From the IMG/VR virus record IMGVR_UViG_3300009421_000002: a DNA stretch of 37,766 nucleotides; one strand, written 5' to 3'. Shown here piece by piece: positions 1-37,766 of the stretch (the first letter of the stretch is position 1; each line of letters starts with the position of its first letter). The translations under genes and the position numbers were made by a program. This DNA comes from a virus. The notes below the pieces were generated by a model. It did no database searches. It saw nothing but the letters and a program-made list of their open reading frames with translations, and had not been told where the DNA came from.

Positions 1-123
1 ATTGGTGTTGCTATAGAAATATTGGCGGTCTTGTTATTGCTAGAAGTAACGTTGTTTCTGGTGGTGCCGGCGTGGCGGCGGTTCTGTCGAGCAAGTGGAT
101 TGCTTTATGTGTTTGCCGGGACA
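1..123. repeat. Left copy of an exact 123-nt terminal redundancy (identical to 37644-37766)
   Basis: The string attggtgttgctatagaaat...tgtgtttgccgggaca occurs at both window ends in the same orientation. No mismatch seen. Confidence 0.95.
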
Positions 124-261
124 ATTCCAATGTTTTTCGCAGTGCTTCTGCCCGCGTACTTAGACGTTAGAGATCCGATATCTCATGTTTATTTTCTGGC
201 CGGGGTTTGCGTATCAGCAGCCGGCGTTCGGATTCTGTACGGGTCTCGGAATAATGAGTGA
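1..261 (+). CDS. 3' part of the same junction-spanning membrane protein
   Basis: Frame 1 is open from base 1 (IGVAIEILAVLLLLEVTLFLVV...) to TGA 259-261. About four hydrophobic helices overall. The ORF track's 22..261 is the TTG-truncated version. Confidence 0.6.
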   Translation: MGVAIEILAVLLLLEVTLFLVVPAWRRFCRASGLLYVFAGTIPMFFAVLLPAYLDVRDPISHVYFLAGVCVSAAGVRILYGSRNNE

Positions 262-637
262 AGCCACATCAGTGGTGTCGAAAGCCGGAGCGATTGCCGG
301 CGGTATAACCGCTGCCACTTCCAAGGTAAGAACTGTTGTTGCACCAGAGCTTTGGGAATTGCCTTGGGAGTCTTTGCTTTTCGCGTCTGGCATTGCGGCG
401 TTCTTCGGCGTGGTCAGCAGGTTGCGCAAAATCGAAGAAGGCTCTCTGGATTGGAGAAGCTTCTGGACGGCCGCAATCTCAGGCGGTTGCTCAGGTCTGA
501 TCGTCTCTGCTTTGATGCTGGGAAACAAAGCCGATCCGCTCTATGTGTTCGCCGCAATGGTTGTGTTCGGACTTTTAGGCGGTAAGGGTCTTGACTTGAT
601 TCTGAATCGCGGCGCTAAACAAGTAGAGGGCAAGTGA
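254..637 (+). CDS. Holin-like membrane protein, about three TM segments
   Basis: ATG 254 overlaps the upstream stop. Hydrophobic segments: LLFASGIAAFFGVV, FWTAAISGGCSGLIVSALML, LYVFAAMVVFGLLGG. Sits in the lysis cluster. The alternative start at 185 would overlap the upstream gene by 77 nt. Confidence 0.5.
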   Translation: MSEATSVVSKAGAIAGGITAATSKVRTVVAPELWELPWESLLFASGIAAFFGVVSRLRKIEEGSLDWRSFWTAAISGGCSGLIVSALMLGNKADPLYVFAAMVVFGLLGGKGLDLILNRGAKQVEGK

Positions 638-777
638 TGACACTCTTTCTATCTCTCGGCTTCGTCCTGATGTGCAGCCAGCCGATGCCAGGGGCTAAGC
701 ATGGTTTGTTGATGATCGACCACCCGATGCTGTTGCGCTATATCCCGTTGAAGGTCAAATGCAAAGGTGACGTTTGA
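637..777 (+). CDS. 46-aa ORF with a hydrophobic N-terminus and Cys13 (MTLFLSLGFVLMCSQPMPG...); possible small lipoprotein or membrane peptide
   Basis: ATGA overlap with the upstream stop (635-637) and TTGA overlap with the downstream start (774). It fills an otherwise empty 136-nt gap. It is below the ORF-track length cutoff. VLMC is not a canonical lipobox. Confidence 0.35.
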   Translation: MTLFLSLGFVLMCSQPMPGAKHGLLMIDHPMLLRYIPLKVKCKGDV

Positions 778-1196
778 TCGTTCGACTACAACGCCTGATC
801 AGCGGTTCACATGGGACGTTTGGCGTGTTGCGCGCCCCAGGCTGGACGGCGCTCAGCATTGAATGTCCGTGGATAAATAATATTCGCAATGTGTCGTGCA
901 TTCCTGATGGGCAATATCGAGTGGTGATGTCTTACTCGCCCAAATTCCGGCGGCGCATGTATGAGATTCTTGACGTACCGGGGCGGTCGGGTATTCGCTT
1001 GCACGGCGGCAACTTAGCCGGAGACCGGACCAAAGGGCTTATTACTCACTTCTCAGGTTGCATAGGGCTTGGCATCCGACAAGGTGTGTTGAGCAACCAG
1101 CGGGCAGTACTCATATCTCAAGCGACCGTCTCGACGTTTGAGAGTCTCATGCAGCACAAAGACTTTGACCTAATCATTGAGGGCGACCATGCTTGA
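774..1196 (+). CDS. DUF5675-family protein (YkuD/L,D-transpeptidase-like H..GC signature); candidate cell-wall enzyme of the lysis cassette
   Basis: Motifs GTFGVL, SCIPDGQY, SPKF, VPGRSGIRLHGGN and SGCIGLG fit my memory of the DUF5675 pattern. TTG start preceded by AAGGTGA. Confidence 0.6.
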   Translation: MIVRLQRLISGSHGTFGVLRAPGWTALSIECPWINNIRNVSCIPDGQYRVVMSYSPKFRRRMYEILDVPGRSGIRLHGGNLAGDRTKGLITHFSGCIGLGIRQGVLSNQRAVLISQATVSTFESLMQHKDFDLIIEGDHA

Positions 1197-1803
1197 ATCT
1201 CTCGCGGGAATTGCTACGGGTGGCTGGGGGCCGATTGTTGGGTCACTGGTTGGATTCGCTGGCGGCATCGTTAATAAGTTCATGGCTTACAAAGTTCGCA
1301 AGCTTGAGATTGCCGACAATGCCAATGCTCGCGCCCACGCCAAAGATATGGCCGTCATCAATTTCAATCGAGAGAAAGAGCTGACGACGCTTGAGATTGA
1401 AGGCCGCGCAAGACAGGCATCAATTGATGGTGAGATTGACATCGAGAAGATGGACTTGGGCAATCTGGGGATCTCGATTGGCGCAGACCGAGCCGCCTAC
1501 CTGTCTGAAGACGCCCAGGCAAAGAGCAAAGTGGTGATGTACGCAATGGCGGTGGTCGATTGGGTGCGCGGCATGACGCGGCCCGTGCTGACTATCTCGC
1601 TGATCTATGGCGCATGGCACATAAACATGCTGTTGATCGGATTTCTGGAGACGCTCAACAACGGCGGATTGCCGGTCAATGTCGTGATTCAACTCACGGT
1701 TATTTCAGTTGTCACTATTCTGACGCTGGCAACGACTGCTGTGGGTTACTGGTTCGGCTCTCGTCCGACTGTGCTCAAGAAGCTGTCCGAGGTGATTAAG
1801 TGA
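1189..1803 (+). CDS. Membrane protein with GTA_holin_3TM-like architecture (N-terminal TM, charged coiled region, C-terminal TM pair)
   Basis: ATG 1189 with SD GAGGG; overlaps the upstream stop. Sequence: GIATGGWGPIVGSLVGFAGGIV, then a charged stretch, then DWVRGMTRPVLTISLIYGAW and VIQLTVISVVTILTLATTAVGYWF. Confidence 0.5.
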   Translation: MLESLAGIATGGWGPIVGSLVGFAGGIVNKFMAYKVRKLEIADNANARAHAKDMAVINFNREKELTTLEIEGRARQASIDGEIDIEKMDLGNLGISIGADRAAYLSEDAQAKSKVVMYAMAVVDWVRGMTRPVLTISLIYGAWHINMLLIGFLETLNNGGLPVNVVIQLTVISVVTILTLATTAVGYWFGSRPTVLKKLSEVIK

Positions 1804-2105
1804 CAGACAAGCAGACCGAGTACCCGTGCGGTCCGTCCTGGCTATGGTGGCGCATCCGCAAATGGATATCACCTAAATGGGCGTGCCCATGCTGCCGAGC
1901 GCATGACAAAGGCTACACAGGCCAAGGGGATCGCAAGCTAGTCGATGCTGAATTCCGCAAATGCCTGATGATTTCTGCATGGCAGACGGGCGGCAGTGAG
2001 GGCCACGCCAATCGAGAGTTGCGGGCGTTCTTAGCGGGCATGTCGGTGACGGCGTTTGGCTGGCTGTTCAAGCGCCCGCGTTGGTGGAACGATCTGGGCC
2101 GCTGA
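1800..2105 (+). CDS. Small Cys-rich protein with a prokaryotic phospholipase-A2-like motif (YPCGPS ... CPCCRAHDKGY)
   Basis: GTG 1800 with SD GAGGTGA at 1789-1795; overlaps the upstream stop. The C-x-R/A-H-D-x-G-Y core resembles the His-Asp dyad motif of bacterial/fungal secreted PLA2. At 101 aa the size fits. Confidence 0.5.
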   Translation: MTDKQTEYPCGPSWLWWRIRKWISPKWACPCCRAHDKGYTGQGDRKLVDAEFRKCLMISAWQTGGSEGHANRELRAFLAGMSVTAFGWLFKRPRWWNDLGR

Positions 2106-2176: not shown

Positions 2177-5100
2177 ATGCCGATTAATGGGCAACCGTTT
2201 AAGGTCATCATGGCCACGGTATTTGACGACCCAAATCAGGCGGGCATTCAGCCCTATCGACCCCCGTTGCCAAAGTACATGCTGGCGCTTGCGCATAATG
2301 ATTTACCCAGCATCCCGGCTGCATACACCGCAGGGACTTATCCAATCCAGTTTGTAAACGGGCGCTGGGAAACAGAAAATCAGTTAGACATTACGACCCA
2401 AGACGCAATTAATGCCAAGGCCAGCTACGATGCCAAGCTGCCGCTGTGGTCGGTGCAGGGTGCGGTTACTGAGCTAATTGCCATTGATATTGAATGCTGG
2501 ATGTTTCCGCCGTTCACTTTTGGCGCGGATCTGCAATACACCATTGACAACATTGTGGACGCAGCACAAAAGCTGCAAGCCACATTGCAACAACCTCTAA
2601 CCTTCTACAACCTGGGCCCCGCGTCCGGCTTAGTTGCGACCAAGCAATACACTGCGCAAAACGACACGCTTGCGCCATTGCGGGGAGCCAATGACTTACT
2701 AATCCCGCAAATCAATCCGCACATTGCTGCATGGACGCCTAAGGCATACGCCGTTTACGACAGCGCAGATCAGACCACTAGCGACGCTGAATGGCAATGG
2801 TGGAAAGATTGGATTTCGTTTCAGGTTTCAGAAGCGCGTCGCTTGTCACCCAATACGCCGATTTATCCTTATCTTTGGTGGGAATACGACCCGGTCGGAG
2901 ATCAAGGGACAGGCACCGCAATTCCAATTAATCGGTGGCGAGAAATGCTCGACCACTGCTTATCTGTTGCTGACGGCGTAACAATCTGGGGCGGCGGTGC
3001 GGCAGAGTGGAGCGACTCAATGCCGTGGTGGGTCGAGCTACAGAGCTTTATGTCTGATAACGGTATAGACCAACCCAAGGAATCAAAAGTGCCATCATTT
3101 ACTGCCGACACCGCCACCCTCAATGCCGTCATATCGGCGGCAGACAATCCGGCCAAACGAGCGGCGGTCAATGCGGGGCTAGGCGAGGGCACACTGACCT
3201 TTGAGCTGGTCGCCCTGAACAGCATCATCACCGGCACATTCTCCGGCTCAGTTTGGGGTGATGCGGTGCTGGCTGTAGATAATGTGCAGCTTGCCAGCGT
3301 CGGCGGGCCAGGTGGGGCTGTAGCAGACGCCACGCGACTGACCGTTACCAATGCAAGCGGGCGATTTGTTCGCTTCCCCCCTGGGGCGTATTCGTTTGTT
3401 GGCGCTGGCGGCTCGGACAACGTACAACCCGGCAATGAGATCCGGGTGACATTCCGATACGAACCTGATCCCGTAACGCCACCAGCAGACGATCTATACA
3501 TCCCGGTTGCCGAGCTAATCGCTGGCATGGAAGAAGCCAGCACGTTACAGCCCGCATTCGGTCAACACACCAACAATGAGGCGGTGATGCGGTCGCCAAC
3601 CTATGATGCTGTTGTCGGCTACCTCGGGGCGGCCCCAGCAGGCCAAGATGACTTTGATGACTTCGTTGAGGAAATTTACCCGTGGCCGTGGGCGTATCCG
3701 GCAACAGGGCATAACGTGGGCATCGGTTTACGGCTCGAGATGCGGCGGCTGAAAGTGTCGGCTTGTCGAAAGAGCACGGGGCAATGGCAAGACTTGCCCG
3801 AGTCAGGCTTAGGCCCAAACCTAGGCTGGAATGGCAACACGCAGACCGGCCCAAGCACCAAACTACGCAACGAAGCAGGCACCGGCAATTTATCTTTTGG
3901 GCCAACTACCATCAATGAAGGCGTGGAAGTCTGGCCGCCCGTTGAAACCTACAAAGACAAAGCGTTATTCCGCGATACCAAAGCCTGGGGCATTGTGTTT
4001 CAGGCGCGGGTGATTGACGACAATGGCGACCCGTACAACGGCGCGGATGGTCGCTTTGCTGTGCAGCTTGGATTTGACCAGTACGGGGGCAGAGAACGCG
4101 GCGGTGACGACAAGTATGCAGCGCCAGCCCGTTATCCTCGGACTCGCGCAGACGGCGGAAACAAGCGCTGGGATCTAGTAACAGGCGGCGACTGGACGAC
4201 CATCGGCCTAATCACAATGGAATCGTTCAAGTTCAACGAGAATCCACATGCTGGCTACGTCCCGCCCTGGCCTTATGACCGCTCGCCTTATGTCCTCACC
4301 CGCCAGCAAGTGCTGGACAATCCGCCATCGTGGGCAACAGGGGGCGGCACATCAACCACTTCATCTATGTTCGGCGGTGTAGTCGATGCCGATCCAAACT
4401 ATGTAGTCAGGCCACGGCCCGCCAATGCGGTGCGCGATCTGATGGTGGCAACGGACCCGGCATGGCTTTGCGGAGAATTCGCGACGGGTTGGCACCAATG
4501 GCTTGGCGTTAAACAAGGCGGTGTGACTTCTACGCATATGCGCCTTGTCGATTGGCGCGACAACGGCAACCCGGATGACGGTGGCATGTTCGTCGGCTCA
4601 GTCGTTAAGAGTCGGCACAACTACGAAACGGCGAGGATTGCCAGATGTGCAGCGCAGAGTAATGGGTGCCCCAAGATTCTGCCAATCTGGATGTTTCCCA
4701 AGTGGATGATTTCAGCGGCCAACATTGCAGAAGTTCAAGCGCGAGGCGGACAGGAAAATCAATTTGGGCAGATATTTAATATCACCCGATACCCGTCATT
4801 CCCTTATGGTGCACACCCGCCCGAAACGTGGGAGTACATCAAGGAGTACGTGAGGGCGATCTATCGTCCCGTGTCTGAGTTGGGCCCAAATGGTGAGCCA
4901 GGACTAGGCTACACAAAAGACAATTGGCCAGTGCTTGAGCTGGGCAACGAACAGAAGTTTGCCAGTCGCACTATCGGTGCGAGTCGTGCGTGGTTTGCGT
5001 CAAGCTCTGCTGTCAATACGCGCTGCTTTAATCTCATGACTATGCGTGAGATGAACGAAGGATTGAGAGCGCTGAAAGAAGTTGCACCGGCTGGTGTGTT

Positions 5101-5758
5101 GGTTGCTGCTGGCGGCTATGAAGGGGATTTCAACGGCAGTGTAGGCAAGACACTGGCCAATCCAAACGCTGAATACTCGTATTTCCAAGCGCAGATGCTG
5201 ACCGATGACAATCACGGCGGACTTGGCATTGATCATGTCGACATTGTTTTTGCTCATCCGTATATGTACGCCTACAACCCAGAGCGCTCGCAAGTCGAGA
5301 TTGACAATTGCAGAGCGCAAATCGAGTGGCTTGCCGCGCATTTGGGAAGGCCTGAAATTGCAGCGATACCATTGCATTGCAACGAAACCGGGCACGAGTC
5401 GCCAAGCGGAGTTGATAACACTTACGGCACCATCACGTATTTGATCAATCAGCAAGGCGCAGCGTCCGCTTATGCCACCACTGCTCGCAACATGAAGCGG
5501 TCAGTTTTAATTTGGGTAGCCAATGGCTCAAAACAGAATTGCTTAGGCGGTAATCACTTTGTCGACCGTCCCTACGGAAACCCGCGTGATTCATATGGCG
5601 AGCGCCAGACTTACGGTGCCCCATCAGAAGTGCCCGAGCTGATCGCTGCAAACCAGTACGGCAATCAGGTGGTCAATAAAGTGGTGCGGCAAGCATACCA
5701 ATTATCAGACGGGCAAATTGTTTGCTACTTTGAAGATGGCACAACCTTACAGGCATAA
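2177..5758 (+). CDS. 1193-aa protein with two glycosidase-like TIM-barrel regions (GH56/hyaluronidase-like N-terminus; clan GH-A-like C-terminus); probable polysaccharide depolymerase
   Basis: N-terminal motifs: IAIDIECW, LTFYNLGP, IYPYLWWEY, DGVTIWGGG. C-terminal motifs: LELGNEQ (Glu codon 4949-4951), AHPYMY, CNETGHE (Glu codon 5384-5386). The two Glu residues are 145 residues apart. Confidence 0.6.
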   Translation: MPINGQPFKVIMATVFDDPNQAGIQPYRPPLPKYMLALAHNDLPSIPAAYTAGTYPIQFVNGRWETENQLDITTQDAINAKASYDAKLPLWSVQGAVTELIAIDIECWMFPPFTFGADLQYTIDNIVDAAQKLQATLQQPLTFYNLGPASGLVATKQYTAQNDTLAPLRGANDLLIPQINPHIAAWTPKAYAVYDSADQTTSDAEWQWWKDWISFQVSEARRLSPNTPIYPYLWWEYDPVGDQGTGTAIPINRWREMLDHCLSVADGVTIWGGGAAEWSDSMPWWVELQSFMSDNGIDQPKESKVPSFTADTATLNAVISAADNPAKRAAVNAGLGEGTLTFELVALNSIITGTFSGSVWGDAVLAVDNVQLASVGGPGGAVADATRLTVTNASGRFVRFPPGAYSFVGAGGSDNVQPGNEIRVTFRYEPDPVTPPADDLYIPVAELIAGMEEASTLQPAFGQHTNNEAVMRSPTYDAVVGYLGAAPAGQDDFDDFVEEIYPWPWAYPATGHNVGIGLRLEMRRLKVSACRKSTGQWQDLPESGLGPNLGWNGNTQTGPSTKLRNEAGTGNLSFGPTTINEGVEVWPPVETYKDKALFRDTKAWGIVFQARVIDDNGDPYNGADGRFAVQLGFDQYGGRERGGDDKYAAPARYPRTRADGGNKRWDLVTGGDWTTIGLITMESFKFNENPHAGYVPPWPYDRSPYVLTRQQVLDNPPSWATGGGTSTTSSMFGGVVDADPNYVVRPRPANAVRDLMVATDPAWLCGEFATGWHQWLGVKQGGVTSTHMRLVDWRDNGNPDDGGMFVGSVVKSRHNYETARIARCAAQSNGCPKILPIWMFPKWMISAANIAEVQARGGQENQFGQIFNITRYPSFPYGAHPPETWEYIKEYVRAIYRPVSELGPNGEPGLGYTKDNWPVLELGNEQKFASRTIGASRAWFASSSAVNTRCFNLMTMREMNEGLRALKEVAPAGVLVAAGGYEGDFNGSVGKTLANPNAEYSYFQAQMLTDDNHGGLGIDHVDIVFAHPYMYAYNPERSQVEIDNCRAQIEWLAAHLGRPEIAAIPLHCNETGHESPSGVDNTYGTITYLINQQGAASAYATTARNMKRSVLIWVANGSKQNCLGGNHFVDRPYGNPRDSYGERQTYGAPSEVPELIAANQYGNQVVNKVVRQAYQLSDGQIVCYFEDGTTLQA

Positions 5759-5760
5759 CA

Positions 5761-7392
5761 ATGGCTCAAGTAGCACTACAAGATTCGAGAGCGTCGACCT
5801 GGGATGGGGCGGCATTCAATACGACAATCACAACAGCGCCAGGGCTAGCGGGCGAACATCAGCTGATTGTCATGACACATTTTTCTGGCACTGTCGCTGC
5901 GCCTGAGTTAAGCGGCTGGCAAAAAGGTGGCACGGTCACTTTGGGCAGCAACAGCTTCACCGCTTACAAAAGAGTGTTGACGGCTGATGTCACCTCGGGC
6001 GGTGTGCAGGCGAGCTTTGCTCAGGCAGTCGAAGGTGAGGCATGGTGCGGCTCGTTCAATGGTGCTATTGGAACTATTACGCCATTCAACGTGCTTGAGT
6101 ACACCGCCACCGCCAGACCCATTGGCGCAGTGACCGCACAAGCGGCGAACGCTTTGCAGTTGTTTGCGGGTGCGACAGATGCTTACCCGAGGCAAGCCGA
6201 CCCATCGACTGGCTGGACAGAATCAAGCGACCGAGCGCAATACGCGGGCGCGGGCGGATTGGCCTTGCATGTCATGCACCGGCCTATTGGCGCAGGCGCT
6301 TCGGGTGCGTCGTCTTACGACATTCGATTGACAGATATAGACGGCGGCACTGGCGGCACTGGCGCAGGAACGCGCACGATGGCGCTCAACATTGCCATTG
6401 AAGAAATTGAGCAGACTAACGTTGCTACGTTTGATGTGCTGGCGGAATTCCCGTCTATTGCGGTGACCGTCACCCCGGATCGCAACACGGTCACCGACAA
6501 CGAAACCGCATCAATCAATGCAAACGTGGTTGGCTCAGACCAGGGCGTGACATACAGCATCGTCCAGGGCGTTGGAACAGTCACCGCGCAAGGTGTCGTC
6601 ACACCAACAGAGCCAGGAACGATTACAGTGCGGGCGGCTAGTGTCGAAGCGCCCTCGGTGTTTGCTGACGCTGTGATTGATGTGCTGCCGGTCGTTCCGA
6701 CAATCAATCCGGTGGCCGCGTCGGTGAGCCCAGCAGCGCTGAGCGGCACTGCCGAGCCTAACGCCACGGTTCAACTGCAGATCTACGGCAACACGATCAC
6801 GACAAGCGCCAACGGTTCGGGTCAGTGGGCCACCAATGTGGCATTGCCCCCTGGCGACTACGAGCTGTTAGCCACGCAAACCAAAAATGGCAAAACCAGT
6901 GGATCGGCCGGACCTGTCGCGGTGCAAGTGCTCGATGATGATGTGGGCGTAACCCTTGACCCGCCCGTCATGTATGCCATTGCAAGCGGTGAGGGCGACA
7001 TCACGATTGCCGGCACCGGGGCAGTTGGTGCGACCGTGCGTCTCAGGTTAAACGGTGCTTTGCTGCCTAGCATGGCCACTGTGGATAGCAATGGCAATTG
7101 GAGCGTGCTGCTTTCGCTGCCCGTGGGTGGTTACAGTGTTGTCGCGTATCAGGTCAAAGACTTGACGACCAGCAACGTCACCGAGCCCAAGCTGTTCAAT
7201 GTTTACATTCCTGTTGCCCCGCCTGCCCCAACAGAATGGGGAGCCCGTCACAATGAAATGACCACGGACAAGCGCGGCGATCTACCAAAACCCCCTGTTA
7301 CTGCCGATGAGTCGCTGGGGGTCGGCTCAGTCAAGACACCCTTTCGCACCCCGAAAGCATGGCCAAAAAAAGGGATTCATAACAAGGAATAG
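5761..7392 (+). CDS. 543-aa structural protein with one Big_2-like Ig domain and two further tandem Ig-like repeats
   Basis: VTVTPDRNTVTDNETASINANVVGSDQGVTYSIV...GTITVRAAS is a typical Big_2 pattern. It is followed by two repeats of the form GTAEPNATVQL...ANGSGQWAT...PGDYELLATQ and GTGAVGATVRL...SNGNWSV...VGGYSVVAYQ. Confidence 0.6.
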   Translation: MAQVALQDSRASTWDGAAFNTTITTAPGLAGEHQLIVMTHFSGTVAAPELSGWQKGGTVTLGSNSFTAYKRVLTADVTSGGVQASFAQAVEGEAWCGSFNGAIGTITPFNVLEYTATARPIGAVTAQAANALQLFAGATDAYPRQADPSTGWTESSDRAQYAGAGGLALHVMHRPIGAGASGASSYDIRLTDIDGGTGGTGAGTRTMALNIAIEEIEQTNVATFDVLAEFPSIAVTVTPDRNTVTDNETASINANVVGSDQGVTYSIVQGVGTVTAQGVVTPTEPGTITVRAASVEAPSVFADAVIDVLPVVPTINPVAASVSPAALSGTAEPNATVQLQIYGNTITTSANGSGQWATNVALPPGDYELLATQTKNGKTSGSAGPVAVQVLDDDVGVTLDPPVMYAIASGEGDITIAGTGAVGATVRLRLNGALLPSMATVDSNGNWSVLLSLPVGGYSVVAYQVKDLTTSNVTEPKLFNVYIPVAPPAPTEWGARHNEMTTDKRGDLPKPPVTADESLGVGSVKTPFRTPKAWPKKGIHNKE

Positions 7393-22439: not shown

Positions 22440-22698
22440 CGGGAATTAAAGCGCGGATAGATTTGGCGGCTGTATCAAGCCCTGAGTTGTGGCCTGCCGC
22501 CAAATTAATGCAATGAAGCGAATCGGGAATAATTTTTGATTCACATTCTTCTGCTGCTCGCTCAAACGCAAGACGAATCAACTCGGTTGAGAATGCCCAT
22601 CCCTCCGGAGTCGTGTCGTCAACGTCAATATCACCATAAGGTGAAATCGCTCCAACAGCTCGCGCGACAATGTCGTGAATTTCTTGTTCATCCATCAC
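22417..22698 (-). CDS. Hypothetical acidic protein, last gene of the leftward early operon
   Basis: ATGA overlap with the upstream lipoprotein gene. Its 3' end overlaps the terL 3' end by 23 bp. Confidence 0.5.
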   Translation of the reverse strand: MMDEQEIHDIVARAVGAISPYGDIDVDDTTPEGWAFSTELIRLAFERAAEECESKIIPDSLHCINLAAGHNSGLDTAAKSIRALIPANRPSEH

Positions 22699-23279
22699 CG
22701 ATTCCTTATCCCTTCAACATCATTAGCCGCAACACCACAGGCCACAAACAGATCGCGCTCGGAGCCATGAATAGCCCAGCCCACAATCTCGCCGTTCCTG
22801 TCGAGCGTCGTCCATGTTTGTTCGCTGCCTGACTCGTTCAACCACCACGAGTAGGTGACGCCAGACCCATGCAGTTCAATGATGGCAGTGGCCGGGTTAG
22901 TGTCATAGGTGAAGTCTGAGCCACCGATACCCAAGTCAAAGTTTGTCGTCTGCTGCTCGGCATAGACAATCAGAAAACGCGGCAATGAGCCGTTGTTTCC
23001 GCGAACGCAATCGAGCGTGGCCGACATATTGTCTACTAGCTGCGGGTACGTTGGCTCAGGCTCGGCAGGCGCGACGATCACGGGCTCAGGCGAACCAACC
23101 ACAGGGGCCGGTGCTGGCTGCTGGCGCTGCTCTGGTGCTGGCTGTGACGGCTGCGCCGGTTCTACTGCGGGTTGCTCGTCGCGCTGCGCTGAGTCGGTGG
23201 ATGTCGGGGCGACTGATTCGCCACCGCCACCGCAGGCGGCTAAGAGTAAGGCGAGAAGTAAAGGGGTAATGGTTTTCAT
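22695..23279 (-). CDS. Lipoprotein with a Pro/Gln/Ala-rich linker and a C-terminal globular domain
   Basis: Signal peptide MKTITPLLLALLLAAC with lipobox LAAC, followed by GGGG. SD and ATGA coupling present. Confidence 0.8.
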   Translation of the reverse strand: MKTITPLLLALLLAACGGGGESVAPTSTDSAQRDEQPAVEPAQPSQPAPEQRQQPAPAPVVGSPEPVIVAPAEPEPTYPQLVDNMSATLDCVRGNNGSLPRFLIVYAEQQTTNFDLGIGGSDFTYDTNPATAIIELHGSGVTYSWWLNESGSEQTWTTLDRNGEIVGWAIHGSERDLFVACGVAANDVEGIRNR

Positions 23280-35245: not shown

Positions 35246-35766
35246 GTGGCGAAGTCGATGACGTGTTGCAAGCCGATGGATGGTTAGTCAGTGGGCTGGC
35301 GACTTCGGGATCTGCCAGCCTGCTAACTACCTCTGGCGAAATGAACGAGACGTTGACGGTTGATGGCTGGGATGTTGGCGATACGGGGAGCGGGACGATT
35401 GGCAAAGCCCGAATCCTCACCGCCAACCTGCTACCCGTCACCGCGCTATCAGAGTCAGGCGATGCGGTTGCAACGCACAGTGTTCCGAATCTGCCTTCTG
35501 GCGTGACAGTGACGGGGTGGTCGTTGACGGCAGGTGACACGCAATTCAATCTGATTGACAACGGCGCTACTGCTGATGTAACGGTTGACGATCTGACCGG
35601 CGTTAGCGCTGACACGAGCTACACGGTGCAAGCGACATTGAGCGCGGGTGATCCGTTGGTGCGAGTTGTGACCGTCACGTTTGCCGAGCCTGTTGGCTAC
35701 GCATTGGAAGTTGAACCGGGCTTTGCGCTCGAAATTGAACCGGGCTTTGCCCTTGAGGTGGCGTAA
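35242..35766 (+). CDS. 174-aa Thr/Gly/Ser-rich structural protein with a C-terminal octapeptide repeat; possible tailspike adaptor
   Basis: ATGA overlap with the portal gene and TAATG overlap with the tailspike gene. Ends GYALEVEP GFALEIEP GFALEVA. Confidence 0.5.
   Translation: MSGEVDDVLQADGWLVSGLATSGSASLLTTSGEMNETLTVDGWDVGDTGSGTIGKARILTANLLPVTALSESGDAVATHSVPNLPSGVTVTGWSLTAGDTQFNLIDNGATADVTVDDLTGVSADTSYTVQATLSAGDPLVRVVTVTFAEPVGYALEVEPGFALEIEPGFALEVA
35695..35763 (+). repeat. Three tandem 24-nt units encoding G(Y/F)ALE(V/I)EP
   Basis: ggctacgcattggaagttgaaccg / ggctttgcgctcgaaattgaaccg / ggctttgcccttgaggtggcg. Confidence 0.85.
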
Positions 35767-37382
35767 TGGCTATTACTGATGGAAATGGGGATTTAGTCCC
35801 GTCAAAGAATCCGGCTTCAATATCGGCGGCAAATTGGGGCGCAGTTCGTGCTGCTATGAATCTGTTTCGAGACGCTTCGGAATGGGGCGTCACCTACGAT
35901 TCATCAGTCGATTCATCAACTGAAGCGCAGGCAGCTATTGATGCCAACAAGGGCGGCTTTTTAGTCTTTTCAAAAGACTTCATGGCCAAAGACCTGAAGA
36001 TGGACGACAGCACCTACAACGGCACGACCATTATCATGGAAGGCCGGATGTACTTAGCCGGTAACGGTAGCGCCAACACGCCGGGGCTTGCTGTACCAGC
36101 AGGACTATACATCGGGCCGGTTGCAGACGTGACGTTACACTTCAGAGGGCACGGCAACCGCTTAAACATGACAGTTCGGGAACAGATCAGCTTGCTTGTG
36201 CTGGCGGGTTGTACGAACCTAAATATTCCTGAGTTTGATGCTGTTGAATGTCGAGGCGATGGCGTCTACATGACGCACACGGGTTCAGGATCATTAGGCG
36301 ACTATTGTGATGGCGTTCACTTTGGAAGATTTAGGGCGGTCAACAGCGCAACAGATGGCCGCAACGGACTGACAATCATCACAGGCAAAAATATTGTTGT
36401 TGATGATTACTATTCAAATCGGTTCGGACACTTGGTCGGCGGTGGTTCTATGCCTGGTGGTATTGACATTGAGCCAAACAATTTATATGAACTTGTCGAA
36501 AATGTTCAGATTGGAAAGGCGTTTATTCGCACTGTTGGAACGGCTGGCTTTGCGGTTCATGGCCAGAGCAGCAAACTGACCGTCAATGTCACTTGTGCAA
36601 ATTTGGTGATTGAGAACTATGTAGACCCCTTTATTGACGATCAAAACAGCAATACCACGCAAGCATCCACAACGCGGTTAATCAGAGTCGCCAATGCTCG
36701 ACAGGTAAAGATTAGTGCCGTGGGGCGGTTCATAAACGCCTACGGAGTGGGATTAGAAATTCAGGGGTCAGATGACTGCAATATTGCGTTGCAAGCCACC
36801 AAAGTTCACTACGGCCTCTATGCTGGTGGGGTTGCCGTTTACGGAGGGGCCAAGGACTGCGATCGTTGCCGACTTGATGTAGTCGCAACCGATGTATCCC
36901 GATATGGCGCATACGTTGCCAATCTCTTTGACTGCGTTGTTGCGGGCACGGTTAGTGATCCCAAGACAGCCTTTTACACCAATCGGTTTGGGGTTTACTG
37001 CGCTGAAACTTTAACTAGAACTCGGTTTGAAATGGGCGTTGAGTATTCTGCTGATTGGACTCGCGCCTATAGAAACGCTGCTGCAACCTACACCAGCGTT
37101 GTCTTGAATGGTGTGGACCTATCAGCGTTCACGACTGTTAACAACCGGGTTGACGATACGGTAATGAAGCGAACGAACAGCCCTGGCGCTTCAGATGGAA
37201 CAGCGCAGCCTAATGATGGTTCGTGGGTTCAGGGGCAGTTCTACCAAGACACTGCATCGTCAAAAACTGCGAATGGGAACATCAGAACAGGATGGCTGAG
37301 ACTGACGACCGGTGCTGCCAATGTCGCGGGTACAGATTGGGAGCCGGTCTACCAGCCGACCACTGATGTCTCCCACGCTTGA
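35766..37382 (+). CDS. Tailspike with pectate-lyase-superfamily (right-handed beta-helix) signature; probable depolymerase
   Basis: EWGVTYDSSVDSSTEAQAAIDANKGGFLVF matches the opening of the Pectate_lyase_3-type domain. The rest is repetitive and G/N/V-rich. 538 aa. Confidence 0.65.
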   Translation: MAITDGNGDLVPSKNPASISAANWGAVRAAMNLFRDASEWGVTYDSSVDSSTEAQAAIDANKGGFLVFSKDFMAKDLKMDDSTYNGTTIIMEGRMYLAGNGSANTPGLAVPAGLYIGPVADVTLHFRGHGNRLNMTVREQISLLVLAGCTNLNIPEFDAVECRGDGVYMTHTGSGSLGDYCDGVHFGRFRAVNSATDGRNGLTIITGKNIVVDDYYSNRFGHLVGGGSMPGGIDIEPNNLYELVENVQIGKAFIRTVGTAGFAVHGQSSKLTVNVTCANLVIENYVDPFIDDQNSNTTQASTTRLIRVANARQVKISAVGRFINAYGVGLEIQGSDDCNIALQATKVHYGLYAGGVAVYGGAKDCDRCRLDVVATDVSRYGAYVANLFDCVVAGTVSDPKTAFYTNRFGVYCAETLTRTRFEMGVEYSADWTRAYRNAAATYTSVVLNGVDLSAFTTVNNRVDDTVMKRTNSPGASDGTAQPNDGSWVQGQFYQDTASSKTANGNIRTGWLRLTTGAANVAGTDWEPVYQPTTDVSHA

Positions 37383-37532: not shown

Positions 37533-37766
37533 ATGATCCGATTCCTCTGTTTGCTGTGGCCTGGGGCGCTGGGTTACCTTGGCGCTTACAGTGCGGCTTC
37601 CAGCACTTCTCGCGTGTTCGCGTCGATTCCAAACGGTCAAGTGATTGGTGTTGCTATAGAAATATTGGCGGTCTTGTTATTGCTAGAAGTAACGTTGTTT
37701 CTGGTGGTGCCGGCGTGGCGGCGGTTCTGTCGAGCAAGTGGATTGCTTTATGTGTTTGCCGGGACA
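37533..37766 (+). CDS. 5' part of a junction-spanning multi-TM membrane protein (123 aa once the overlap is collapsed); first gene of the lysis cluster
   Basis: ATG 37533 with SD AAGGTGA at 37519-37525. The frame stays open to the window end and continues in frame 1 at base 1. An in-frame ATG at 37488 has no SD. Confidence 0.6.
   Translation, partial: MIRFLCLLWPGALGYLGAYSAASSTSRVFASIPNGQVIGVAIEILAVLLLLEVTLFLVVPAWRRFCRASGLLYVFAGT
37644..37766. repeat. Right copy of the 123-nt terminal redundancy
   Basis: Identical to bases 1-123. It lies inside an open reading frame. Confidence 0.95.

What the first reader, a model, noticed from the sequence alone, without database searches (positions are those of the whole stretch)
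1800..2105. Phospholipase-A2-like His-Asp motif protein at the spanin position
The 101-aa protein contains YPCGPS, then CPCCRAHDKGY. The C-x-(R/A)-H-D-x-G-Y core is the catalytic signature I recall for bacterial/fungal secreted PLA2 (C-x-R-H-D-F-G-Y). The upstream Y-x-C-G could be a Ca-loop analogue, and the protein size fits that family. It is the last gene of the lysis cluster, where spanins or disruptins normally sit. There is no signal peptide, so it would depend on holin lesions to reach its target. A lipolytic route to outer-membrane disruption would be unusual.
Basis: partly seen in the sequence, partly recalled or inferred. Interest (0 to 1): 0.7.

Follow-up and report, generated by a model that had tools for sequence, protein, structure and literature searches.

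The report
Mini phospholipase-A2-like gene ending phage lysis cassette
The last, translationally coupled gene of this phage's lysis cassette encodes a 101-residue protein that is a real but very divergent relative of microbial phospholipases A2, so it may attack host membrane lipids at lysis; this is untested, and its closest relative sits next to ordinary spanin genes rather than replacing them.

Summary
The ORF and both motifs are exactly as described. The PLA2 reading holds, but only at profile level. Pfam gives a single sub-threshold hit (PLA2G12, E 0.047).

The protein belongs to a rare family of 7 sequence clusters. Its profile matches two known groups:
- DUF1353, whose member TtaP was shown to be a PLA2 in 2024: hhalign probability 94.7%, E 6e-8.
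- Solved group XIII/XIV microbial secreted PLA2s: probability 93.8%, E 1.6e-7.

Reversed and shuffled profiles reach at most 6.3%. The catalytic His35, Asp36 and Asp49 are invariant and align to His64, Asp65 and Asp85 of Streptomyces PLA2. The better AlphaFold model has Tuber borchii PLA2 (4AUP) as top PDB hit (prob 0.96, E 0.45).

The protein has no signal peptide or TM segment, is basic and has 9% Trp. Its GTG start overlaps the stop of the upstream gene.

In 3 of 5 informative contexts the homologue is the last gene of a lysis cassette, each with a different endolysin type. In the other two it lies about 2.5-2.7 kb downstream of one.

No spanin was found in this window. The closest homologue, however, directly follows an Rz/Rz1-like spanin pair.

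Best reading: a lipolytic lysis accessory, a new variant of the DUF1353/group XIV PLA2 kind. A spanin replacement remains possible but less likely.

The parts
1800..2105 (+). PLA2-fold protein, 101 aa. Member of a rare 7-cluster phage family related to DUF1353/TtaP and to group XIII/XIV microbial secreted PLA2.
   Evidence: ORF. Family. hhalign vs DUF1353: Prob 94.7, E 6e-8. hhalign vs PDB group XIII/XIV PLA2: Prob 93.8, E 1.6e-7. Null controls reach at most 6.3%. Foldseek top hit 4aup_B, prob 0.96, E 0.45. phrog_6098 E 2.8e-8.
1789..1803 (+). Translational coupling: GAGGTG Shine-Dalgarno (1789-1794), GTG start (1800-1802), overlapping the TGA stop (1801-1803) of the upstream gene.
   Evidence: Read directly from the sequence. 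The same GTGA overlap joins the P0002 gene to the o-spanin candidate in L024.
1821..1838 (+). Y8-P-C10-G11-P12-S13. C10, G11 and P12 are invariant in the family. Possible counterpart of the DUF1353 'SDGASIP' and group XIV 'D-x-C-S-x-x-P' loop (Ca2+ loop / first disulfide Cys).
   Evidence: MAFFT alignment A5 puts P12 on the invariant Pro of DUF1353. hhalign does not extend to this segment against the PDB PLA2s, so the equivalence is inferred.
1893..1916 (+). C32-R-A-H35-D36-K-G-Y39: catalytic His, Ca2+-ligand Asp and conserved Tyr on the first core helix.
   Evidence: Invariant in all 7 family members. Aligned to C61, H64, D65 and Y68 of Streptomyces violaceoruber PLA2 and to the HD-x-x-Y motif of DUF1353. 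TtaP equivalents are H70 and D71 (PMC11525133).
1932..1955 (+). R45-K-L-V-D49-A-E-F52: second-helix motif carrying the dyad Asp.
   Evidence: R45, D49 and F52 are invariant. D49 aligns to D85 of SvPLA2 and F52 to F88. D85A abolishes activity in TtaP. The His-to-Asp spacing is 14 residues here, 15 in DUF1353/TtaP and 21 in SvPLA2.
2046..2102 (+). V83-T-A-F-G87-W88 third-helix end motif, followed by a cationic, Trp-rich tail (L-F-K91-R-P93-R94-W95-W-N-D-L-G-R).
   Evidence: V83, G87, W88, K91, P93, R94 and W95 are invariant. The motif aligns to the C-terminal 'AV(R/K)xFG(WL)' of the solved PLA2s. Tails of the homologues carry net charge +1 to +7 and are rich in W and F.
1189..1803 (+). 204-aa membrane protein (phrog_6637). 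It has an N-terminal Gly-rich hydrophobic segment, a charged middle and C-terminal TM segments. Putative holin-like lysis-cassette partner.
   Evidence: phrog_6637 E 2.6e-8. The same PHROG hits the protein upstream of the lysozyme in L005 (E 5.9e-11). TM segment at residues 159-189. No significant match to GTA_holin_3TM or to the Rz-like protein.
774..1196 (+). DUF5675 protein, 140 aa, with an H-G-G...S-G-C-I-G motif. Candidate endolysin with an L,D-transpeptidase / C82-like peptidase fold. Soluble, no signal.
   Evidence: PF18925 E 1e-22. DUF5675 is described as C82-like among candidate phage lysins in bioRxiv 10.64898/2026.04.11.717860. No TM segment.
185..637 (+). Holin-like membrane protein (LydA / holin superfamily III type). 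The start may be the ATG at 254.
   Evidence: PF16083 E 6.4e-5, below Pfam's cut-off. phrog_785 'holin' E 7.4e-5.
634..777 (+). 47-aa ORF filling the gap between the holin and DUF5675. Hydrophobic N-terminus ending in V-L-M-C, which is not a canonical lipobox. Status uncertain.
   Evidence: Called as a 46-aa gene in the public contig. No family hit.

Best explanation
The ORF encodes a minimal (about 90-100 aa) enzyme with the phospholipase A2 fold. It is a divergent relative of the DUF1353/TtaP class and of the group XIII/XIV secreted PLA2s of bacteria and fungi.

It is made late, as the last and translationally coupled gene of the lysis cassette. That cassette comprises a holin-like protein, a DUF5675 C82-like endolysin, a phrog_6637 membrane protein and then this gene.

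It has no export signal, so it accumulates in the cytoplasm like the equally signal-less endolysin. It would reach the envelope only when the holin permeabilises the inner membrane. There its basic, Trp-rich surface and K-x-P-R-W tail would dock it on anionic membrane. The His35/Asp49 dyad, with Asp36 as the Ca2+ ligand, would hydrolyse phospholipid acyl esters. The resulting lysophospholipids and free fatty acids would destabilise the outer membrane and membrane remnants, helping the final step of lysis and virion release.

Shown here:
- Homology to the PLA2 families.
- Invariance of the catalytic residues.
- Absence of a signal peptide.
- Operon position, and recurrence of that position in homologues.

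Inferred:
- Catalytic activity, substrate, timing and route to the envelope.
- Latency in the cytoplasm through low Ca2+ and an unformed C10-C32 disulfide.
- Whether the gene is an accessory to spanins or replaces them.
For: Homology:
- hhalign of the 7-member family vs 14 DUF1353 proteins: Prob 94.7%, E 6e-8.
- hhalign vs four solved group XIII/XIV PLA2s: Prob 93.8%, E 1.6e-7.
- Positive control, DUF1353 vs the PDB PLA2s: 93.6%.
- Reversed and shuffled nulls: at most 6.3%.
- 4AUP is the top PDB hit of the family HMM and aligns all three motifs.
- 4AUP is also the only high-probability Foldseek hit for the second model.
- Sub-threshold Pfam hits are all PLA2-type: PLA2G12 in 2 members, DUF1353 in 1.

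Catalytic residues H35, D36, Y39 and D49 are invariant. They are equivalent to H70, D71 and D85 of TtaP. TtaP's PLA2 activity, and its loss in D85A, were shown experimentally (PMC11525133).

Context of the homologues:
- Terminal gene of a lysis cassette in the window, in L024 and in L005. These three have three different endolysin types.
- About 2.5-2.7 kb downstream of holin + M15 endolysin, in the same gene block, in L001-L004.
- DUF1353 genes abut endolysin or holin genes in phages Fnu1, FNU4, Cygsa01, Bjorn and MW202627.

Other points:
- No signal peptide or TM segment, pI 9.7, 9 Trp in 101 aa.
- No spanin recognised in the window.
Against: - No enzymatic or genetic data exist for any member of this family.
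- The plain Pfam HMM search is negative at curated thresholds.
- The first AlphaFold model found no PLA2. The Foldseek E-value of the second is 0.45, and that model's alignment included DUF1353 sequences.
- The Ca2+-ligand Asp of the N-terminal loop (D43 in SvPLA2, the invariant D of DUF1353 'SDGAS') is not conserved.
- Only 5 informative genomic contexts exist. One further context places the gene next to an exonuclease gene.
- In L001-L004, ribonucleotide reductase genes separate the gene from the lysis genes.
- The closest homologue coexists with an Rz/Rz1-like pair, so the gene is not needed in place of spanins there.
- The biological role of TtaP itself is still unknown, and no envelope phenotype was found for it.
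- DUF1353 also occurs beside tail-fibre genes.
Confidence: 0.5

Rival explanations
1. It is a spanin substitute. In this phage, which lacks recognisable spanins, the PLA2-like enzyme is the sole outer-membrane disruptor. That would make it an enzymatic third route beside spanins and the cationic-peptide disruptin.
For: - No Rz-like PHROG or Pfam hit in the cluster.
- No embedded or adjacent canonical lipobox ORF. The only canonical lipoprotein ORF in the genome is a 194-aa protein on the other strand, 20 kb away, without a C-terminal TM segment.
- The gene occupies the last slot of the cassette.
- About 15% of phages are reported to lack spanins, so alternatives must exist (bioRxiv 10.1101/515445).
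- L005 likewise shows lysozyme, a 51-aa Cys-free ORF and then the homologue, with no spanin seen.
Against: - The closest homologue follows a complete-looking Rz/Rz1 pair.
- Absence of spanins here rests on simple pattern and PHROG scans. Spanins are notoriously diverse.
- The 47-aa ORF (634-777) and the 204-aa membrane protein are unexplained and could be unconventional outer-membrane factors.
- The host is unknown.
Confidence: 0.2
2. It is virion- or tail-associated. It would be either a lipid-cleaving entry factor delivered with the particle (as the parvovirus VP1u PLA2 domain is), or a tail-fibre assembly helper, as the PHROG label of DUF1353 ('tail assembly chaperone', phrog_1158) suggests.
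For: - The gene lies 71 nt upstream of a 1193-aa ORF, inside the structural half of the genome between the portal and scaffold/capsid genes.
- DUF1353 lies beside tail-fibre or fibre-assembly genes in Sulfurimonas phage SNW-1, Francisella phage KIRK and Ralstonia phage RsoM3USA.
- P0006 weakly hits phrog_1158 (E 1.7e-4).
- Parvovirus VP1 entries rank 2-3 in the BFVD fold search, though not significantly (E about 2).
Against: - The gene is coupled by a 4-nt overlap to the upstream lysis-cassette gene, not to the downstream ORF.
- The large neighbouring ORFs of the window and of L001 are unrelated, so no association with a fibre gene is conserved.
- The 'chaperone' label has no experimental basis that I could find. 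It conflicts with the measured PLA2 activity of the DUF1353 protein TtaP.
- In L024 the gene follows spanins.
Confidence: 0.15
3. It is a PLA2-fold enzyme with a role unrelated to envelope rupture. Possibilities are remodelling host membranes during infection, superinfection exclusion, destroying membrane vesicles and debris that would trap progeny, or acting on a non-phospholipid ester. Its place near lysis genes would then reflect only late co-expression.
For: - In L001-L004 and L025 the gene sits among nucleotide-metabolism and replication genes rather than directly in a lysis cassette.
- TtaP showed no lysis or envelope phenotype despite robust PLA2 activity.
Against: - Three independent cassettes with different endolysins end in this gene.
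- It overlaps the stop codons of lysis genes.
- Lacking an export signal, it has no access to the periplasm or the exterior before holin action.
Confidence: 0.12
4. The PLA2 resemblance is spurious, or the fold is retained without catalysis. The protein would act, if at all, as a cationic Trp-rich membrane-active peptide (disruptin-like) or as a Cys/His metal-binding protein.
For: - Curated HMM libraries do not recognise it.
- The window protein has five Cys, including C-P-C-C-x-x-H.
- The C-terminal tail resembles Trp/Arg-rich antimicrobial peptides (inference).
Against: - Only C10 and C32 are conserved among the cysteines. The other three are specific to the window protein.
- H35, D36, Y39, D49 and F52 are invariant and in register with the catalytic residues of two PLA2 families, at scores far above the nulls.
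- A purely peptide-like role would not conserve a buried His-Asp dyad.
Confidence: 0.05

Closest known systems
TtaP / DUF1353 (Pfam PF07087; PHROG 1158 and 6098). TtaP is the founding member of a new bacterial PLA2 class, from the Salmonella Typhi typhoid-toxin islet (PMC11525133).
   Same: - Profile-profile homology (Prob 94.7%).
- Same motif order: HD-x-x-Y, R-x3-D-x2-F, V-x-x-F-G, then a basic tail.
- Same His-to-Asp spacing (14 vs 15 residues).
- Small size and basic character.
- No signal peptide.
- Phage/prophage origin, with frequent adjacency to muramidase, endolysin or holin genes.
- Six of the 7 family members and the Fnu1 DUF1353 protein hit the same phrog_6098.
   Different: - The PF07087 model does not detect the window protein, and only 1 of 6 members scanned hits it, at E 0.006.
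- The family lacks the N-terminal 35-45 residues of DUF1353, including 'GF-x-SDGAS' and its invariant Asp.
- It has an invariant Cys pair (C10, C32), whereas TtaP has none of the four disulfide cysteines of SvPLA2/TbSP1.
- It is far richer in Trp: 5.5-8.9% against 0.9-5.8%.
Group XIII/XIV secreted PLA2 of bacteria and fungi (Pfam PF09056): Streptomyces violaceoruber PLA2 (1FAZ/1LWB), Tuber borchii TbSP1 (4AUP), and 7YGK, 8K1W.
   Same: - C-x-x-H-D-x-G-Y with the Cys three residues before the His.
- Dyad Asp in an (R/K)-x3-D-x2-F motif.
- C-terminal V-x-x-F-G(-W-L).
- hhalign Prob 93.8%.
- 4AUP is the best PDB match both by sequence profile and by fold.
- Similar size to the mature enzymes.
   Different: - No signal peptide or propeptide.
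- The second disulfide (C96-C107 region) is absent.
- The helix-helix connection is 7 residues shorter.
- 'RHDFGYRNY' is reduced to 'x-H-D-x-x-Y'.
- The Ca2+-loop Asp43 is not conserved.
- The PF09056 model does not detect it.
- It is a phage lysis-cassette gene rather than a secreted enzyme of a cellular organism.
Mycobacteriophage LysB (mycolyl-arabinogalactan esterase).
   Same: Functional analogy only. It is a lipolytic enzyme encoded in the lysis cassette that attacks the outer (myco)membrane linkage after the holin and endolysin have acted (PMC5707550 and PMC8309991, listed).
   Different: By general knowledge, LysB is a serine esterase of the alpha/beta-hydrolase (cutinase-like) type, an unrelated fold. 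Its substrate is different and its hosts are mycolata. The role of LysB is proven experimentally; the role proposed here is not.
Spanins (Rz/Rz1, or the unimolecular T1 gp11 type) and the phiKT gp28 disruptin.
   Same: - Position at the distal end of a Gram-negative phage lysis cassette.
- Like gp28, the protein is small, cationic and without a signal sequence (bioRxiv 10.1101/515445).
   Different: - No N-terminal TM segment and no lipobox, so it is not a spanin.
- It is longer than the 56-aa disruptin and carries a conserved catalytic dyad.
- It coexists with an Rz/Rz1-like pair in L024.
Patatin-like PLA2 in the putative lytic cassette of Wolbachia phage WO (PMC9203015).
   Same: It is a proposed, untested lipolytic lysis component encoded next to a holin-like gene and upstream of the tail module.
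   Different: By general knowledge, patatin enzymes are an unrelated fold that uses a Ser-Asp dyad. In WO the enzyme is proposed to replace an endolysin in a host without detectable peptidoglycan.

Membership tests
PLA2 superfamily, microbial group XIII/XIV (PF09056) | Catalytic His with adjacent Ca2+-ligand Asp in C-x-x-H-D-x-G-Y, plus a dyad Asp on the following helix. | tested here: met
   C32, H35, D36, G38, Y39 and D49 align to C61, H64, D65, G67, Y68 and D85 of SvPLA2. C32, H35, D36, Y39 and D49 are invariant in all 7 members; G38 is not.
PLA2 superfamily, microbial group XIII/XIV (PF09056) | Statistically supported sequence or profile similarity to family members. | tested here: met
   hhalign Prob 93.8%, E 1.6e-7, against nulls of at most 6.3%. 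However, no hmmscan hit to PF09056 even at E 10, and the family HMM vs PDB gives only E 0.35.
PLA2 superfamily, microbial group XIII/XIV (PF09056) | Three-helix catalytic core superposable on 1LWB/4AUP. | tested here: inconclusive
   Model 2 (pLDDT 79.7): 4aup_B ranks first, prob 0.96, TM 0.49, rmsd 2.7 A over 70 columns, but E 0.45. Model 1 (pLDDT 75): no PLA2 hit.
PLA2 superfamily, microbial group XIII/XIV (PF09056) | Two conserved disulfides (four Cys). | tested here: not met
   Only C10 and C32 are invariant. C32 aligns to C61. C10 may correspond to C45 (inferred). The C96/C107 pair has no counterpart.
PLA2 superfamily, microbial group XIII/XIV (PF09056) | Secretion signal or propeptide. 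| tested here: not met
   No hydrophobic N-terminus in any of the 7 members.
PLA2 superfamily, microbial group XIII/XIV (PF09056) | Ca2+-dependent sn-2 phospholipid hydrolysis. | not testable with these tools
   Requires an enzyme assay.
DUF1353 / TtaP-type PLA2 (PF07087) | Match to the Pfam model above its gathering score (22.5 bits). | tested here: not met
   No hit for the window protein. One of 6 members scanned reaches E 0.0062. Genuine DUF1353 proteins score 79-90 bits.
DUF1353 / TtaP-type PLA2 (PF07087) | Profile-level homology over the catalytic core (HD-x-x-Y, R-x3-D-x2-F, V-R-V-F-G). | tested here: met
   hhalign Prob 94.7%, E 6e-8, 65 columns. In the joint alignment P12, H35, D36, D49, V83 and G87 are invariant across both families. 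phrog_6098 is shared.
DUF1353 / TtaP-type PLA2 (PF07087) | N-terminal extension ending in G-F-x-(S/T)-D-x-x-S-x-P-R with an invariant Asp. | tested here: not met
   The family starts 4-9 residues before the C-G-P motif. The aligned Asp column is E/P/V/N/H/I or a gap.
Spanins (two-component or unimolecular) | N-terminal TM anchor (i-spanin), or lipoprotein signal with lipobox Cys (o-spanin and u-spanin). | tested here: not met
   Maximum KD19 of 0.85, no lipobox. No Rz-like PHROG hit.
Disruptin (phiKT gp28-like cationic peptide) | Short (about 56 aa) cationic amphipathic helix peptide that complements spanin defects. | not tested
   No gp28 sequence was compared. Only the general properties are shared: net charge +8, no signal sequence.

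The most novel reading that the evidence does not exclude
In this apparently spanin-less phage, the mini-PLA2 is the outer-membrane disruptor. It would be a soluble enzyme, harmless in the cytoplasm because of sub-micromolar Ca2+ and an unformed C10-C32 disulfide. Once the holin opens the inner membrane it would switch on in the oxidising, Ca2+-rich periplasm and dissolve the outer membrane by lipolysis. This would be an enzymatic third solution to the last step of Gram-negative phage lysis. It would also be the missing physiological role for the widespread prophage DUF1353/TtaP proteins.
Probability: 0.2. Interest if true: 0.8.

Novelty: new variant of a known kind. Interest (0 to 1): 0.55.

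Why it matters
How phages that lack spanins breach the outer membrane is only partly answered. One cationic-peptide disruptin is known. About 15% of phages are reported to lack spanins.

DUF1353 proteins are common: more than 6000 sequences according to PMC11525133, and 253 GenBank phage records here. Many are labelled 'tail assembly chaperone'. Only one, TtaP, has a known biochemistry (PLA2), and none has a known biological role.

A compact, cysteine-bearing, Trp-rich relative that repeatedly ends lysis cassettes points to a testable role, namely lipolysis of the envelope at lysis. It links TtaP, which sits in the typhoid-toxin islet with the muramidase-type factor TtsA, back to a phage lysis module. 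A roughly 100-aa PLA2 that expresses without secretion could also be useful as an enzyme or as a helper for endolysin-based antibacterials against Gram-negative bacteria.

If it proves inactive or irrelevant to lysis, the finding shrinks to a remote-homology annotation.

Tried and rejected
- Direct HMM scans (Pfam, NCBIfam, PDB phmmer) gave nothing significant for the single sequence.
- The word-indexed protein search found only the protein itself.
- tblastn of three family members against 50,697 GenBank phages gave no real hit.
- The search for related loci in IMG/VR found nothing with the single protein. The alignment could not be used.
- A degenerate C-G-P-Q-W-W-P DNA scan returned five chance matches with no HD motif.
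- P0004 and P0007 from the exhaustive search are long repeat / RING-like proteins matching through W- and C-rich stretches. I excluded them.
- The first AlphaFold model (6-sequence alignment) had no PLA2 hit in PDB or BFVD.
- I tested whether the 204-aa upstream protein is a GTA_holin_3TM or an Rz-like i-spanin. Neither was supported. It shares only phrog_6637 with the L005 protein.
- I tested whether a large downstream 'fibre' gene is a conserved partner. It is not.
- I considered a zinc-knuckle reading of C-P-C-C-x-x-H and rejected it, because only one of those three cysteines (C32) is conserved.
- I considered the 194-aa lipoprotein (22695-23279, minus strand) as a unimolecular spanin and rejected it: no C-terminal TM segment, remote location, opposite strand.
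- Correction to my notebook entry 2: R45 aligns to K81 of SvPLA2 (the first Arg of 'RKRID' in TbSP1), not to R83.
Full report
**1. Observation**

ORF 1800-2105 (+) starts with GTG and encodes 101 aa.

- A GAGGTG Shine-Dalgarno sequence lies 5 nt upstream. The start codon overlaps the TGA stop of the preceding gene (GTGA, 1800-1803), so the gene is translationally coupled to that gene.
- The protein has no hydrophobic segment; its maximum 19-residue Kyte-Doolittle mean is 0.85. Net charge is +8, pI 9.7. It has 9 Trp and 5 Cys.
- The recalled signature of bacterial/fungal secreted PLA2 is correct. The four solved group XIII/XIV enzymes read C-[AHK]-R-H-D-F-G-Y-R-N-Y.

**2. The family**

- The word-indexed search found only the protein itself.
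- An exhaustive phmmer search of 1.84 billion representatives found five real relatives of 91-104 aa: P0002, P0003, P0005, P0006 and P0008. It also returned two spurious long repeat proteins (checked).
- A profile search added P0009.
- No member is present in 50,697 GenBank phage records, and none was found in IMG/VR by motif scan.
- The seven sequences share the invariant residues C10 G11 P12, C32, H35 D36, Y39, R45, D49, F52, A60, V83, G87 W88, K91, P93 R94 W95.
- Six of the seven are basic (pI 8.9-9.8). Trp makes up 5.5-8.9% of residues. Only two cysteines are conserved.

**3. Is it a PLA2?**

Curated single-sequence HMM searches say almost nothing:
- Pfam gives PLA2G12 at E 0.047 over residues 30-57.
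- NCBIfam gives nothing.
- PHROGs gives phrog_6098, function unknown, at E 2.8e-8.
- Scanning the then six members (alignment A1) individually against Pfam, the only recurring hits are PLA2G12 (2 members) and DUF1353 (1 member, E 0.006).

The family HMM searched against all PDB sequences puts Tuber borchii PLA2 (4AUP) first. The E-value is only 0.35, but the alignment runs through three motifs in order: C-x-x-H-D-x-G-Y, R-x3-D-x2-F and the C-terminal V-x-x-F-G-W-L.

I then assembled two comparison alignments:
- 14 DUF1353 (PF07087) proteins, seeded from the phage Fnu1 protein.
- The four solved group XIII/XIV PLA2s.

Profile-profile comparison (hhalign) gave:

| Comparison | Probability | E-value |
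|---|---|---|
| Family vs DUF1353 | 94.7% | 6e-8 |
| Family vs solved PLA2s | 93.8% | 1.6e-7 |
| DUF1353 vs solved PLA2s (positive control) | 93.6% | 2.1e-7 |
| Four reversed and 30 column-shuffled versions of the family profile (60 comparisons) | at most 6.3% (score 21 vs 44-47 for the real profiles) | - |

Residue equivalences to S. violaceoruber PLA2 are C32=C61, H35=H64, D36=D65, Y39=Y68, D49=D85, F52=F88, V83=V118 and G87=G122. H64/D85 is the catalytic dyad and D65 a Ca2+ ligand; that is established knowledge of the family, and the dyad is restated for TtaP.

In a joint MAFFT alignment with DUF1353, the residues P12, H35, D36, D49, V83 and G87 are invariant across both families. 'YPCGPSWLWW' falls on DUF1353 'SDGASIPRFLW'.

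**4. Structure**

- AlphaFold with the 6-sequence alignment gave pLDDT 75 and an all-helical model. It had no significant PDB or BFVD match. Parvovirus VP1 entries, which carry a PLA2 domain, ranked 2-3 in BFVD at E about 2.
- With the 20-sequence joint alignment, pLDDT rose to 79.7 and pTM to 0.73, with helices at 13-22, 25-40, 45-62 and 69-89.
- For this second model the top PDB hit became 4aup_B: Foldseek probability 0.96, TM 0.49, rmsd 2.7 A over 70 columns, 26% identity, E 0.45. Every other hit has probability 0.35 or lower.
- I count this as consistent but not independently significant.

**5. What is known about the relatives**

DUF1353 was a domain of unknown function until 2024. TtaP of the S. 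Typhi typhoid-toxin islet was then shown to be a PLA2:
- It gave a fluorogenic PLA2 signal comparable to the bee-venom PLA2 control.
- It depleted PE/PG and released free fatty acids.
- The D85A mutant was inactive.
- The dyad is H70/D85, with D71 adjacent.
- It has no signal peptide and no disulfides, and it was not secreted.
- HHpred linked it to 1LWB and 4AUP (PMC11525133).

Its biological role is unknown. The authors favour a contribution to toxin export across the outer membrane, together with the muramidase-type secretion factor TtsA. They note that TtaP resembles prophage DUF1353 proteins and that TtsA resembles prophage muramidases.

The family studied here differs from DUF1353 in four ways:
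- It lacks the N-terminal 35-45 residues, including the invariant Asp of 'SDGAS'.
- It keeps a Cys three residues before the His, as the secreted enzymes do, plus a second invariant Cys in the N-terminal loop.
- It is much richer in Trp.
- The PF07087 model misses it.

**6. Genomic context**

*The window.* It has a 123-nt terminal direct overlap, so it is a circular or terminally redundant assembly of 37,643 bp. It is a podovirus with a T7/epsilon15-type portal, capsid and ejection proteins. The best portal identity is 39%, to phages of Yersinia, Acinetobacter, Alcaligenes and E. coli. The host is therefore probably a Gram-negative proteobacterium; this is inferred.

Genes upstream of the ORF, all on the + strand with overlapping or abutting ends:
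- A LydA-type holin-like protein at 185-637 (PF16083 E 6.4e-5; phrog_785 'holin' E 7.4e-5).
- A 47-aa ORF at 634-777.
- A DUF5675 protein at 774-1196 (E 1e-22). It carries an H-G-G...S-G-C-I-G motif. A 2026 preprint on candidate phage lysins describes DUF5675 as C82-like, i.e. with an L,D-transpeptidase-type fold.
- A 204-aa membrane protein at 1189-1803 (phrog_6637).

*The homologues.*

| Locus (homologue) | Gene order |
|---|---|
| L024 (P0002, 54% identity) | M15_4 endolysin (phrog_465, E 4e-22) > Rz-like i-spanin (phrog_739, E 2.5e-5) > overlapped ORF encoding MKCAVLLSVLSAC... (canonical lipobox, Pro-rich: an o-spanin candidate) > homologue, again with a GTGA overlap |
| L005 (P0006) | phrog_6637 protein (E 5.9e-11) > Phage_lysozyme > 51-aa ORF > homologue |
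| L001-L003 (P0008) and L004 (P0009) | Holin (GTA_holin_3TM / phrog_3427) > M15_4 endolysin > small ORF > ribonucleotide reductase genes > homologue, at or near the end of the gene block (in L004 two small ORFs follow) |
| L025 (P0005) | Only 1.4 kb of context; the homologue lies next to a 5'-3' exonuclease gene |

In three of the five informative contexts the gene is the terminal gene of a lysis cassette, and those three cassettes have three unrelated endolysin types. In the other two it lies about 2.5-2.7 kb downstream of the cassette. The large neighbouring ORFs are not homologous between loci.

*DUF1353 genes in GenBank phages* (253 records). Of 12 contexts examined:
- Five abut endolysin or holin genes: Fnu1, FNU4, Cygsa01, Bjorn and MW202627.
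- Three abut tail-fibre genes: KIRK, SNW-1 and RsoM3USA.
- Four are uninformative.

**7. Spanins**

In the window I found no Rz-like PHROG hit. There is also no embedded or adjacent lipobox ORF. The only canonical lipoprotein ORF is a 194-aa protein at 22695-23279 on the other strand, with no C-terminal TM segment. This phage therefore has no recognisable spanin.

The method is crude, and two nearby ORFs remain unexplained: the 47-aa ORF with its V-L-M-C motif, and the 204-aa membrane protein. L024 shows that the PLA2-like gene can sit directly behind a spanin pair. It is therefore not simply an alternative to spanins.

**8. Mechanism proposed**

Shown:
- The protein is a homologue of the PLA2 fold with an intact, invariant catalytic set.
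- It lacks an export signal.
- It is co-transcribed with, and translationally coupled to, lysis genes.

Inferred:
- It waits in the cytoplasm with the signal-less DUF5675 endolysin. It would be harmless there because free Ca2+ is low and the C10-C32 pair is reduced.
- It escapes through holin lesions and binds anionic membrane through its basic, Trp-rich surface and K-x-P-R-W tail.
- It hydrolyses phospholipid acyl esters. The products weaken the outer membrane and membrane debris.

I put the full scenario at about 0.5. Within it, the strong version (sole outer-membrane disruptor in this phage) is about 0.2. PLA2-fold homology alone I put at about 0.9, and catalytic competence at about 0.65.

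**9. Rivals**

- A virion or tail role, which is the basis of the 'tail assembly chaperone' label of phrog_1158.
- A membrane-remodelling role unrelated to lysis.
- A non-catalytic, cationic membrane-active protein.

Each has some support, detailed in the rival entries. None explains the recurrent terminal position in lysis cassettes together with an invariant dyad as well as the lysis reading does.

**10. Novelty and verdict**

The kind is known: the DUF1353/TtaP PLA2 class, with its distant link to group XIV. This is a previously unrecognised, truncated, Cys- and Trp-bearing variant that current family models miss. Its context gives the clearest pointer so far to a lysis-linked role for this class.

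It is interesting and cheaply testable, but the function is unproven and the 'spanin replacement' reading is weakened. Interest 0.55.

Noticed in passing
window 1-123 and 37644-37766: The first 123 nt are identical to the last 123 nt. The window is a circular (or terminally redundant) assembly of a complete genome of about 37,643 bp. In the public contig the 538-aa gene (35766-37382) directly precedes the lysis cassette.
   Followed up: yes
window 774-1196 (+): The only candidate endolysin is a DUF5675 protein with a YkuD / L,D-transpeptidase-like H-G-G...S-G-C-I-G motif and a faint Tlde1 hit (E 0.13). It has no signal or SAR segment. A 2026 preprint on candidate phage lysins describes DUF5675 as C82-like. 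As the cassette's peptidoglycan enzyme, this is itself an unusual endolysin type.
   Followed up: partly
window 22-261 (+), possibly starting before the junction at 37641: A small ORF with about three hydrophobic segments lies just upstream of the holin-like gene and overlaps its long-start version. It was not called in the public contig. It could be a second holin, an antiholin, or nothing.
   Followed up: no
window 634-777 (+): A 47-aa ORF with a hydrophobic N-terminus ending in V-L-M-C and a Pro-containing remainder. This is not a canonical lipobox and there is no positive n-region. It might be an unconventional small lysis factor or non-coding filler.
   Followed up: partly
window 22695-23279 (-): A 194-aa lipoprotein with a textbook signal (MKTITPLLLALLLAAC) and a long Pro/Gln/Glu-rich linker, in the leftward gene block. 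It has no PHROG hit. It is possibly a superinfection-exclusion or surface-modifying lipoprotein. It is not a spanin.
   Followed up: partly
window 2177-5758 (+) and 5761-7392 (+): Proteins of 1193 aa and 543 aa lie directly downstream of the lysis cassette. The 1193-aa protein has no Pfam, PHROG or PDB sequence match at all. The 543-aa protein has only a sub-threshold bacterial Ig domain hit. They are presumably tail spike or fibre proteins of a novel type.
   Followed up: partly
L024 364-1024: The contig carrying the closest homologue has an Rz-like i-spanin and an overlapped +1-frame ORF with the lipobox L-S-A-C (start 695, 707 or 719). This o-spanin candidate was not called in the public gene set. 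Its stop overlaps the PLA2-like start.
   Followed up: yes
GenBank phage records, e.g. L010 2860-3348 (Bjorn gp2) and many jumbo phages: DUF1353 proteins are widely annotated 'tail assembly chaperone' (phrog_1158). That label sits uneasily with the measured PLA2 activity of the DUF1353 protein TtaP, and with their frequent position next to lysozyme or endolysin genes. It is probably a propagated misannotation.
   Followed up: partly
L001-L003 5552-8011: In the phages carrying P0008, the ribonucleotide reductase large-subunit gene is split in two by a LAGLIDADG homing-endonuclease gene. In L004 it is intact (556 aa).
   Followed up: no
L007 858-2162 (Pseudomonas phage Cygsa01): A GDSL-like lipase/acylhydrolase gene lies two genes upstream of the DUF1353-endolysin pair. 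A second lipolytic gene therefore sits in the same neighbourhood.
   Followed up: no
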